This document shows, one piece after another, positions 4,501-4,914 of a DNA stretch of 64,000 bases. This DNA comes from Rhodothermales bacterium (GTDB lineage Bacteria; Bacteroidota; Rhodothermia; Rhodothermales; VXPQ01). The notes below the pieces were generated by a model that was given only the letters and a program-made list of their open reading frames with translations, was not told where the DNA came from and ran no database searches. Numbering within the stretch: the stretch's first letter is position 1; each line of letters opens with the position of its first letter. The DNA lies in the NCBI GenBank assembly GCA_022825385.1, contig JAJDWX010000012.1:17122-81121 (forward strand). Direction: 5' to 3'. The position numbers and the translations under genes are program-made.

Positions 4501-4914
4501 GGCCTCACAGTTCGTAATATCGCTGCGCCACAGACTTTCAGCACTGAATTCGAGAGAGAGAGAGAGAGAGAGAGAGAGAGAGAGAGAGAGAGAGGGCGCC
4601 TCCAGATCAAAGGCCGCCTCAAGCAAGATGCGCACGGTCCGTACTGGTTTCGTACGGTCACGGGAACTACGCCCGACGGTCGCAGAACCCTTGTTATCTG
4701 GCGCAAGCTCACCGGCGAACCAGAGGAAGATAACCTTGTACTCGACGAGTGGTTCACGAGACAAGGCTACTCGGCAAAGGACAGTGAGTTCGATCTCATC
4801 TACGTCAACGGCGGCAACAACCTTGAGAACCTCAAGACCCCTGACGATTTGTGGAAAGTGCGACTCATTGAAGAGGACTTTCACCGCCTGATGTTCGAGA
4901 TGGGGGAAGCCTGA
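1597..4914 (+). CDS. Large beta-class (type III Mod-like) N6-adenine/N4-cytosine DNA methyltransferase
   Basis: 1105-aa ORF. Motif IV DPPY (IYIDPPYNT, nt 3127-3138) lies upstream of SAM motif I FAGSG ([13 protein letters not shown], nt 3994-4008), which is the beta-class permutation. The stop overlaps the next start (TGATG at 4912-4916). Confidence 0.85.
4552..4594 (+). repeat. (GA)21 dinucleotide microsatellite inside the methyltransferase ORF, encoding (ER)7
   Basis: Read directly from the sequence: an uninterrupted gagag... run of 43 nt, in frame, translated as [16 protein letters not shown]. Confidence 0.98.

What the first reader, a model, noticed from the sequence alone, without database searches (positions are those of the whole stretch)
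4552..4594. In-frame (GA)21 microsatellite near the 3' end of the methylase gene: candidate phase-variation switch
A perfect 43-nt GA run encodes (ER)7, about 110 codons before the stop.

Gaining one unit moves translation into the frame of the listed ORF 4466..4891. This gives an alternative tail of about 100 aa that ends at 4891.

Losing one unit reads into a TAA at 4731-4733.

Either change removes the native C-terminal domain. It also breaks the TGATG coupling to the Res-like gene at 4914.

Simple-sequence repeats in type III mod genes are the classical basis of phasevarions in host-adapted pathogens. A long dinucleotide tract in a GC-rich, environmental-type genome is unusual.
Basis: partly seen in the sequence, partly recalled or inferred. 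Interest (0 to 1): 0.6.

Follow-up and report, generated by a model that had tools for sequence, protein, structure and literature searches.

The report
GA microsatellite inside a restriction-system methylase gene
A perfect 43-base GA repeat, absent from every relative examined, sits inside the methylase gene of a phage-defence system in an uncultured environmental bacterium, where copying errors should switch the gene off and on, although no length variation could be observed.

Summary
Window 4552-4594 is a perfect (GA)21.5 run that encodes (ER)7 in a 1105-aa type III-like mod gene. One unit gained reads to a stop at 4889-4891. One unit lost reads to TAA 4731-4733. The native TGA overlaps the res ATG.

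The tract is real. An independent assembly of the same sample breaks inside it.

It is lineage-specific. All 120 closest protein homologues have ERDSE at this position, and none of the mod genes in 82 related loci has a repeat. The nearest relatives carry GAGCGTGACAGCGAG, an 11/15 proto-repeat, so the net gain is 27 nt. In an AlphaFold model the tract is a low-confidence loop between two strands of a conserved C-terminal domain, not a linker. AGA is a rare codon here, so this is a DNA-level expansion.

It meets the published sequence criterion for a phase-variable type III mod gene, and GA[n] tracts are already known in Mycoplasma mod genes. No length variant, OFF allele or second strain could be found, and no relative shares the tract. 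Selection for switching is therefore unproven.

Verdict: a real, probably hypermutable frameshift switch of recent origin. It is a new member of a known kind, of moderate interest.

The parts
4552..4594 (+). Perfect (GA)21.5 microsatellite. It encodes (ER)7 at codons 986-999 of mod.
   Evidence: Also present in the ENA scaffold (43 nt), and the Logan contig L006 starts inside it.
1597..4914 (+). mod: a 1105-aa type III-like N6-adenine DNA methyltransferase. Catalytic core is about residues 486-830, with DPPY at 511-514 and FAGSG at 800-804. It has a family-specific N-terminal region of about 480 aa and a C-terminal region of about 270 aa.
   Evidence: Pfam N6_N4_Mtase; PADLOC MTase_III PDLC03646, 732 bits; PDB sequence and fold matches to type III Mods 7dsu, 6k0w and 4zcf; invariant columns.
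4597..4911 (+). Codons 1001-1105, the part of the C-terminal domain lost on any frameshift. It is highly conserved ([24 protein letters not shown]...) and is modelled as beta strands 1002-1010, 1016-1024 and 1030-1036 plus helix 1042-1055, with pLDDT about 80.
4889..4891 (+). Stop codon used after +1 unit or -2 units. It lies 23 nt upstream of the res ATG.
4731..4733 (+). TAA stop codon used after -1 unit or +2 units. It lies 181 nt upstream of the res ATG.
4914..8123 (+). res: a 1069-aa type III-like restriction subunit. It has a ResIII/SF2 helicase domain at residues 159-306 and a C-terminal HPD-x16-DPK nuclease-like motif. Its ATG overlaps the mod TGA (TGATG).
   Evidence: Pfam ResIII; PADLOC REase_III PDLC03654, 754 bits; sequence. 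A 1- or 4-nt overlap with mod is seen in 26 of 47 related loci that have an adjacent long ORF.
1..1557 (+). 3' part of a DrmD-like SNF2 helicase gene, cut by the window start. The full gene is 969 aa in the source scaffold. It is the conserved first gene of the SNF2-mod-res module.
   Evidence: Full length read from L004: DISARM_DrmD_b 685 bits, below the cut-off of 950, and PADLOC DrmD 677 bits. The same three-gene order occurs in L001 and L002.

Best explanation
The tract is a real microsatellite that expanded recently in this one lineage. The seed was a cryptic GA-rich 15-mer (GAG CGN GAC AGC GAG) that encodes a short loop (ERDSE) between two predicted strands in the C-terminal domain of a type III-like Mod methyltransferase. 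The gene belongs to an SNF2-mod-res defence module on a horizontally acquired island in an uncultured Rhodothermales bacterium.

The unit is 2 nt and the run is 21 units long. Slipped-strand mispairing during replication should therefore add or remove units at high frequency. Two of every three length states are out of frame. Those states replace the last 106 residues, which are conserved and predicted to fold, with a nonsense tail, and they move the mod stop 23 or 181 nt upstream of the res start. The expected result is a reversible ON/OFF switch of Mod. Because a type III Res needs Mod for target recognition, restriction should switch with it.

Shown here: the tract, its reality, its lineage-specific origin, the frame consequences, the conservation and predicted fold of the lost part, and the conserved mod-res overlap.

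Inferred: the hypermutability, the loss of function of frameshifted Mod, the effect on Res, and any selective benefit. Whether the switch is adaptive (a contingency locus) or an unselected by-product is left open.
For: - Perfect 43-nt run, none expected by chance.
- An independent assembly breaks inside it, so it is in the reads.
- The flanks align codon for codon with the relatives L001 and L002. Only 15 nt are replaced by 42 nt, a net gain of 27 nt, and the ancestral 15-mer matches the GA repeat at 11 of 15 positions.
- All 120 closest homologues have ERDSE-type loops and none has an ER repeat. No SSR occurs in any mod gene of 82 related loci; across their 1.07 Mb the longest dinucleotide run is (CG)6.
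- AGA makes up only 3-7 % of Arg codons here, so the tract was not shaped for coding.
- The consensus length is in frame, and the frame outcomes were verified.
- The region after the tract holds many invariant or near-invariant residues. It is modelled as strands and a helix with pLDDT about 80, while the tract itself is a loop with pLDDT below 50 between strands 979-987 and 1002-1010.
- A 1- or 4-nt mod-res overlap is common in the family.
- An SSR switch of a defence methyltransferase in a GC-rich soil bacterium is documented: the pglX G tract, switching at 1e-2 to 1e-4.
- From my own knowledge, not checked here: slippage rates rise steeply with the number of units (Levinson and Gutman 1987; De Bolle et al. 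2000).
Against: - No length polymorphism was observed. Only one sample holds this strain. Two exact-flank scans of JGI metagenomes found nothing. A protein search with both out-of-frame tails found nothing.
- The tract is a singleton in a family with 567 relatives among GTDB species representatives. There is no convergence and there are no allelic series, which are the usual hallmarks of selected phase-variable mod genes.
- I know of no characterised precedent for a switch this close to the 3' end of a mod gene. Residues 1-985, with the whole catalytic core, stay intact, so a frameshifted Mod might keep some activity.
- In the +1-unit frame the stop is only 23 nt from the res ATG, so the effect on Res translation may be small.
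- Slippage and mismatch-repair behaviour in Rhodothermales is unknown.
- The AlphaFold model is of moderate quality (mean pLDDT 66.7).
Confidence: 0.55

Rival explanations
1. Inert, tolerated loop insertion. The repeat expanded by chance in an indel-tolerant surface loop. It is kept in frame only because Mod is needed, it varies little in this organism, and it has no regulatory role. Out-of-frame variants are simply rare deleterious mutants.
For: - Other homologues (P0039, P0085) carry an unrelated 9-residue insertion at the same position, and several more have insertions just downstream. The loop therefore tolerates length changes.
- The tract is a singleton among more than 200 relatives.
- No variant was found anywhere.
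- The net change is a multiple of three.
Against: - A perfect 21-unit dinucleotide run far exceeds the length at which slippage becomes frequent in every bacterium tested (own knowledge; thresholds quoted).
- No other dinucleotide run longer than 6 units exists in 1.13 Mb of related and host sequence, which suggests such runs are normally purged.
- The absence of any interruption argues for ongoing slippage or a very recent origin.
Confidence: 0.25
2. First step of decay. The tract is a mutational liability in a defence module that is on its way to becoming a pseudogene. It is one-way inactivation rather than a reversible switch.
For: - About 9 of the 82 related loci show a mod reading frame that ends early when read from the tblastn start (not verified individually).
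- Defence islands turn over quickly, and this one is a low-GC insert.
Against: - The consensus is in frame, and mod, res and the SNF2 gene are all intact.
- Slippage is reversible by nature.
Confidence: 0.1
3. The (ER)7 peptide is itself the selected feature, for example a charged arm that contacts DNA or Res. On this reading the DNA repeat is incidental.
For: Alternating E/R sequences can form charged helices (own knowledge). The insertion lies on a predicted loop.
Against: - No homologue has anything similar.
- The codons are a perfect DNA repeat that uses rare AGA for all seven arginines. This is the signature of slippage, not of selection on the protein.
- The segment is modelled as disordered, with pLDDT below 50.
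Confidence: 0.05
4. Assembly or sequencing artefact, either in the existence of the tract or in its length.
For: - This is a single metagenomic sample.
- The exact length of 43 nt comes from one assembly.
- The k=31 Logan assembly cannot resolve the length and breaks there.
Against: - Two assemblers recover a GA run of at least 28 nt joined to the same right flank.
- Both flanks are colinear with the homologues, and the gene stays in frame.
- I know of no platform artefact that creates (GA)n inside a unique sequence.
Confidence: 0.05

Closest known systems
[quoted passage not shown] 2018, PMC5909438)
   Same: Both have an SSR inside the ORF of a type III-family N6-adenine methyltransferase, with a GA unit and a length inside the reported range of 5-25 units. 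Frameshifting is by slipped-strand mispairing. The sequence criterion of at least 5 dinucleotide units is met. The solved Mod of M. bovis (Mbo45V, 7dsu) is the best PDB sequence match to the catalytic core.
   Different: - Here the Mod belongs to a different, much larger family (about 1100 aa, with a conserved SNF2 partner gene).
- The tract lies 106 codons from the 3' end, in a loop of the C-terminal domain, so the catalytic core is untouched.
- There is no allelic series and no length variation between strains, and no other family member has a repeat.
- The host is a free-living, GC-rich, uncultured Rhodothermales bacterium.
- Any role in gene regulation (a regulon) is pure conjecture.
G-tract phase variation of pglX in the Pgl/BREX system of Streptomyces coelicolor (Sumby and Smith 2003, as cited in PMC4365076)
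   Same: Both are SSRs inside the methyltransferase gene of a multi-gene phage-defence system in a GC-rich environmental bacterium. The whole defence is proposed to switch on and off.
   Different: The pglX tract is a homopolymer, its switching has been measured experimentally (1e-2 to 1e-4), and it sits in a different methyltransferase family and defence architecture. Nothing has been measured here.
Classical type III restriction-modification systems (EcoP15I, EcoP1I)
   Same: mod lies upstream of res with overlapping stop and start codons. The Mod has the beta-class motif order. The Res has an SF2 helicase domain and a PD-(D/E)xK-like motif.
   Different: The Mod is about 460 aa longer, with N- and C-terminal extensions. 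An SNF2 (DrmD-like) gene is conserved upstream, and a DrmC-like PLD nuclease lies nearby on the other strand. Neither subunit matches an NCBIfam model.
DISARM class 1
   Same: A DrmD-like SNF2 helicase, an adenine methyltransferase and a DrmC-like PLD protein lie in one neighbourhood.
   Different: No DrmA or DrmB (DUF1998) was found among the 13 neighbouring ORFs scanned. The third gene is a type III Res homologue. The SNF2 protein scores below the NCBIfam DrmD_b cut-off.

Membership tests
Type III restriction-modification system | Mod is a beta-class N6-adenine methyltransferase: motif IV (DPPY), then the target-recognition region, then motif I (FxGxG). | tested here: met
   DPPY at residues 511-514 and FAGSG at 800-804, with the poorly conserved stretch between them. 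Pfam N6_N4_Mtase covers 507-830. PADLOC MTase_III scores 732 bits.
Type III restriction-modification system | Sequence and fold similarity to solved type III Mod subunits. | tested here: met
   phmmer: 7dsu at 1.2e-19, 6k0w at 2.4e-17, 4zcf at 4.6e-11. The top Foldseek hits are 6k0w, 4zcf and 7dsu.
Type III restriction-modification system | Res subunit with an SF2 helicase/ATPase domain and a C-terminal PD-(D/E)xK nuclease, encoded directly downstream of mod. | tested here: met
   Pfam ResIII at residues 159-306. PADLOC REase_III scores 754 bits. An HPD-x16-DPK motif is seen by eye near the C-terminus; the nuclease motif was not tested by a profile. The TGATG overlap is shown.
Type III restriction-modification system | Enzymology: hemimethylation of an asymmetric site, and ATP-dependent cleavage that needs two inversely oriented unmodified sites. 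| not testable with these tools
   Needs a methylome and biochemistry.
Phase-variable mod gene / phasevarion | An SSR inside the ORF (or promoter) whose unit is not a multiple of 3 and whose length is known to slip (at least 5 units for dinucleotides). | tested here: met
   (GA)21.5 inside the ORF. The criterion is quoted from PMC5909438.
Phase-variable mod gene / phasevarion | Tract length differs between strains or within a population. | tested here: inconclusive
   Only one sample carries the strain. Flank scans of metagenome contigs gave 0 hits. A search with the out-of-frame tails found nothing. The Logan contig cannot resolve the length.
Phase-variable mod gene / phasevarion | The SSR is shared by a group of related mod genes or alleles, with conserved ends and variable TRDs. 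| tested here: not met
   None of the 120 closest homologues has the repeat. No SSR occurs in the mod genes of 82 related loci.
Phase-variable mod gene / phasevarion | Length change switches methyltransferase expression or activity, and through it a regulon. | not testable with these tools
   Only the frame consequences could be computed.
DISARM (class 1) | Core genes drmA (helicase) and drmB (DUF1998), together with drmC. | tested here: not met
   No DrmA, DrmB or DUF1998 hit among the ORFs of window 1-24.7 kb scanned with Pfam or PADLOC. A DrmC-like PLD protein is present at 9490-10653 on the minus strand, with 443 bits.
DISARM (class 1) | DrmD SNF2 helicase. | tested here: inconclusive
   NCBIfam DISARM_DrmD_b scores 685 bits, below the curated cut-off of 950. 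PADLOC DrmD scores 677 bits.

The most novel reading that the evidence does not exclude
This would be a contingency locus caught at birth in a free-living bacterium, with a 3'-proximal position that matters. Frameshifts leave the catalytic core of Mod (residues 1-985) intact but remove the C-terminal domain and loosen translational coupling to res. The OFF state would then be 'methylation kept, restriction lost'. The defence could be switched off and on again without self-restriction of an unmethylated chromosome. Classical 5'-located mod switches do not offer this.
Probability: 0.1. Interest if true: 0.65.

Novelty: new member of a known kind. Interest (0 to 1): 0.4.

Why it matters
Simple-sequence switches in methyltransferase genes are well studied in host-adapted pathogens. 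They are hardly studied in free-living bacteria, where their role would more likely be to balance phage defence against the cost of the system or against uptake of foreign DNA.

Three features make this case useful:
- The tract sits in a widespread but uncharacterised SNF2-mod-res defence family (567 relatives among GTDB species representatives).
- Its ancestral proto-repeat is still visible in sister sequences.
- No relative shares it, so it shows how such a switch, or such a liability, arises.

The claim can be tested directly with the reads of one public run. If length heterogeneity is found, the locus would be a clean natural example of a newly born phase-variable defence system. If it is not found, the tract is a curiosity.

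Tried and rejected
Searches for strain or sample variants, all negative:
- Two exact-match scans of JGI metagenome contigs, one with the left flank plus GA units and one with the right flank, gave 0 hits.
- Exact-protein look-ups of Mod, Res and the OLD-family ATPase returned only the ENA scaffold and one Logan contig, apparently from the same sample.
- The 212-kb NCBI contig that also carries the identical Res and AmtB could not be fetched.
- The source genome is not a GTDB species representative.
- A protein search with the two predicted out-of-frame tails, meant to catch OFF alleles, found nothing.
- A search for the sample identifiers in the literature found nothing relevant.

An alternative functional C-terminus in the +1-unit frame: rejected. 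The long open alternative frame is shared only with the closest relative. In most homologues it closes within a few codons.

An ER-rich linker conserved in the family: rejected.

The tract as a promoter spacer or internal promoter for res: no sigma-70-like site lies near it, and 43 nt is too long for a spacer. Bacteroidota-type promoters are not covered by the tool.

Poly-G runs in three Rhodothermales loci (L010, L012, L042) were seen while scanning relatives. They lie in an unrelated upstream gene and differ by substitution, not by length.

Caveat on the protein database. The window's own Mod is absent from the protein collection although its neighbours are present. The protein-level absence of ER repeats could therefore be biased. 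The tblastn-based survey of the 80 GTDB loci does not depend on that collection and gives the same answer.

Full report
1. OBSERVATION

The sequence at window 4552-4594 is a perfect GA run of 43 nt: 21.5 units with 100 % matches. It is the only dinucleotide run longer than 5 units in the 64-kb window. A GA 16-mer was found in none of 100 dinucleotide-preserving shuffles.

The run lies in ORF 1597-4914 (+, 1105 aa). Codons 986-999 read (ER)7, and 106 codons follow before the stop.

I rebuilt the length variants:
- +1 unit (or -2) reads into the frame of ORF 4466-4891 and stops at 4889-4891.
- -1 unit (or +2) stops at TAA 4731-4733.
- +/-3 units stay in frame.

The native TGA overlaps the ATG of the next gene as TGATG.

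2. IS THE TRACT REAL?

Exact-protein look-ups show that the window matches an ENA metagenome scaffold, KELL22-1_SAMN22237330_METAG-scaffold_330 (103 kb). The two are identical over the 10.9 kb compared, including the 43-nt tract.

A second assembly of run SRR16351685, made independently by Logan, carries the identical res gene on a 29.6-kb contig. That contig begins at window 4567, inside the tract. It opens with 28 nt of AG repeat and continues without a mismatch for 6.9 kb. A contig break there is what a k=31 graph does at a repeat longer than k.

So the repeat is in the reads. Its exact length rests on one assembly.

3. WHAT THE GENES ARE

Mod has the following features:
- a Pfam N6_N4_Mtase core at residues 507-830;
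- a match to PADLOC MTase_III at 732 bits;
- the beta-class motif order, with DPPY at 511-514 and FAGSG at 800-804 separated by a poorly conserved stretch;
- the type III Mods Mbo45V (7dsu), H. pylori Mod (6k0w) and EcoP15I Mod (4zcf) as best solved relatives, by sequence and by fold.

The downstream 1069-aa protein is a type III-like Res. It has a ResIII helicase domain, a PADLOC REase_III score of 754 bits, and an HPD-x16-DPK motif near the C-terminus.

Upstream lies a DrmD-like SNF2 helicase gene, cut by the window start. The full-length protein is 969 aa and scores 685 bits against NCBIfam DrmD_b, below the cut-off of 950.

The order SNF2-mod-res recurs in the two closest relatives. A 1- or 4-nt overlap between mod and res is seen in 26 of 47 related loci that have an adjacent long ORF.

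The module sits in a low-GC stretch (40-55 %) of about 24 kb. That stretch also holds a Fic/Doc gene, a DrmC-like PLD gene, an OLD-family ATPase gene and HTH regulator genes. The rest of the window has 58-67 % GC. Closest homologues of the AmtB ammonium-transporter gene in the host part of the window place the host in Rhodothermales.

DrmA and DrmB were not found, so I do not file the module under DISARM.

4. ORIGIN OF THE TRACT

The 120 closest protein homologues (62-86 % identity) all read F-E-R-D-S-E-(K/G)-R-L or a close variant where the window reads F-(ER)7-G-R-L. None has an ER repeat. Two of them (P0039, P0085) have an unrelated 9-residue insertion at the same place.

At the DNA level the nearest relatives read GAG CGT GAC AGC GAG and GAG TGC GAC AGC GAG. 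The first of these matches the GA repeat at 11 of 15 positions. The window has 42 nt in place of these 15, a net gain of 27 nt, and both flanks remain colinear.

A tblastn-based scan of GTDB species representatives found 567 relatives across many phyla, almost all environmental. In the 80 loci kept from that scan plus the two closest relatives (1.07 Mb) no mod gene contains an SSR. The longest dinucleotide run anywhere in them is (CG)6.

AGA supplies only 3 % of Arg codons in the host genes and 7 % in the island genes. Seven AGA codons in a row of 14 codons are therefore a product of DNA slippage, not of selection for a charged peptide.

The tract is thus a lineage-specific and probably recent expansion of a cryptic proto-repeat.

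5. WHERE IT SITS IN THE PROTEIN

An AlphaFold2 model was built from 61 aligned sequences (mean pLDDT 66.7). It places residues 988-1001 as a loop without secondary structure, with pLDDT below 50 for residues 991-998. The loop lies between strand 979-987 and strand 1002-1010. Three strands and a helix follow, with pLDDT about 80.

The region after the tract holds many invariant and near-invariant residues.

The tract is therefore an expanded loop inside a folded, conserved C-terminal domain. It is not a linker in front of one. Any frameshift cuts that domain in the middle. It leaves residues 1-985 in place, including the whole catalytic core.

The long alternative tail in the +1-unit frame is not conserved among homologues, so it is not an alternative functional C-terminus.

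6. MECHANISM

Shown:
- the repeat and its reality;
- the frame outcomes;
- the conservation and predicted fold of the lost part;
- the conserved mod-res overlap.

Inferred from established knowledge of slipped-strand mispairing:
- A perfect 21-unit dinucleotide run should gain and lose units at high frequency.
- Two of every three length states are OFF for native Mod.
- A type III Res depends on Mod for target recognition, so restriction should go off with it.
- The new stops lie 23 nt (+1 unit) and 181 nt (-1 unit) upstream of the res ATG. Translational coupling is therefore weakened, strongly only in the -1 frame.

The in-frame consensus fits selection for functional Mod, but it has a 1-in-3 chance under no selection.

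7. WHAT COULD NOT BE SHOWN

I found no length variation. Details:
- Only one sample contains this strain in the searchable collections.
- Two flank scans of JGI metagenome contigs were empty.
- The 212-kb NCBI contig with the same Res could not be retrieved.
- A protein search with the two predicted nonsense tails, designed to catch OFF alleles, returned nothing.

No relative shares the tract either. The usual signatures of a selected switch are absent: a repeat conserved across alleles, variable lengths and convergent origins. A role as a promoter element is unlikely.

8. COMPARISON WITH WHAT IS KNOWN

The REBASE survey of type III mod genes (PMC5909438) reports the following:
- It calls a mod gene phase-variable when a dinucleotide tract has at least 5 units.
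- It finds SSRs in 17.4 % of mod genes.
- It reports GA[n] tracts of 5-25 units in Mycoplasmataceae mod genes.
- It lists environmental species among the carriers.
- It argues for at least 25 independent origins at different positions in the gene.

The G-tract switch of pglX in Streptomyces coelicolor is a measured example. It is an SSR-switched defence methyltransferase in a GC-rich soil bacterium.

Against this background the present tract is a new member of a known kind. Its particular points are:
- the Mod family (about 1100 aa, with an SNF2 partner);
- the 3'-proximal position inside a C-terminal domain;
- the host (an uncultured Rhodothermales bacterium);
- the visible proto-repeat in sister sequences.

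9. VERDICT

- Observation: confirmed.
- Interpretation: partly supported.
- Best explanation (confidence 0.55): a real, recently born, slippage-prone microsatellite that works as a reversible frameshift switch of Mod and, through Mod, of the restriction module. Whether it is adaptive is open.
- Main rival (0.25): an inert, tolerated loop expansion.
- Minor rivals: decay towards a pseudogene (0.1), selection for the ER peptide (0.05), artefact (0.05).
- Most novel reading not excluded (probability about 0.1): the 3' position gives an OFF state that still methylates but no longer restricts, so that the defence can be re-armed safely.
- Interest: 0.4.

Noticed in passing
window 44719-44733: A C10 homopolymer (44724-44733) starts 3 nt after a candidate ATG (44719). 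That ATG is in frame with an MpaB/Lcp-like oxygenase ORF (44293-45987) and lies 18 nt downstream of the stop of a squalene/phytoene synthase gene (43667-44701). A homopolymer right after a start codon is a classical phase-variation layout. This would be a second candidate SSR switch in the same window, in a carotenoid-type gene pair.
   Followed up: partly
window 1-24000: A low-GC (40-55 %) defence island in a genome of 58-67 % GC. Its genes are: SNF2-mod-res; a Fic/Doc-family gene (8128-9255, minus strand); a DrmC-like PLD gene (9490-10653, minus strand); an HTH gene (10729-11208, minus strand); an OLD/Gabija-like ATPase-TOPRIM gene (11945-14050); a gene for an HTH plus M78 peptidase protein (19961-21271); a 'Beta protein' gene (21210-22349); and several ORFs with no family match (14648-18944).
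   Followed up: partly
window 39300-39745: An imperfect tandem repeat with period 54 (6.8 copies) nested in period 162 (2.8 copies), 78 % matches. It lies in a GC-rich region covered by long ORFs on both strands (38490-39842 plus strand; 38851-39846 minus strand). It may encode a repeat protein.
   Followed up: no
L006 1-30 (= window 4567-4596): The Logan assembly of SRR16351685 breaks exactly inside the GA tract. Short-k assemblies will split this mod gene, and gene catalogues built from them will miss or truncate it. The window's Mod protein is indeed absent from the large protein collection, while its neighbours Res and AmtB are present.
   Followed up: yes
L017, L022, L053, L055, L059, L073 (mod match from locus position 6001): In roughly 9 of the 82 related loci the mod reading frame ends early when read from the tblastn start. 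In L059 the match spans 4.8 kb, which suggests an insertion. This may reflect frequent pseudogene formation or disruption by mobile elements in this defence family. It could also be an artefact of the match coordinates.
   Followed up: no
L001 5094-6502 and 18196-22336: In the closest relative on a long contig, the SNF2-mod-res module sits next to a Thoeris pair (ThsA Macro and ThsB TIR) and is flanked by transposase and Mu-like/TniB genes. This fits a module that moves as part of mobile defence islands.
   Followed up: no
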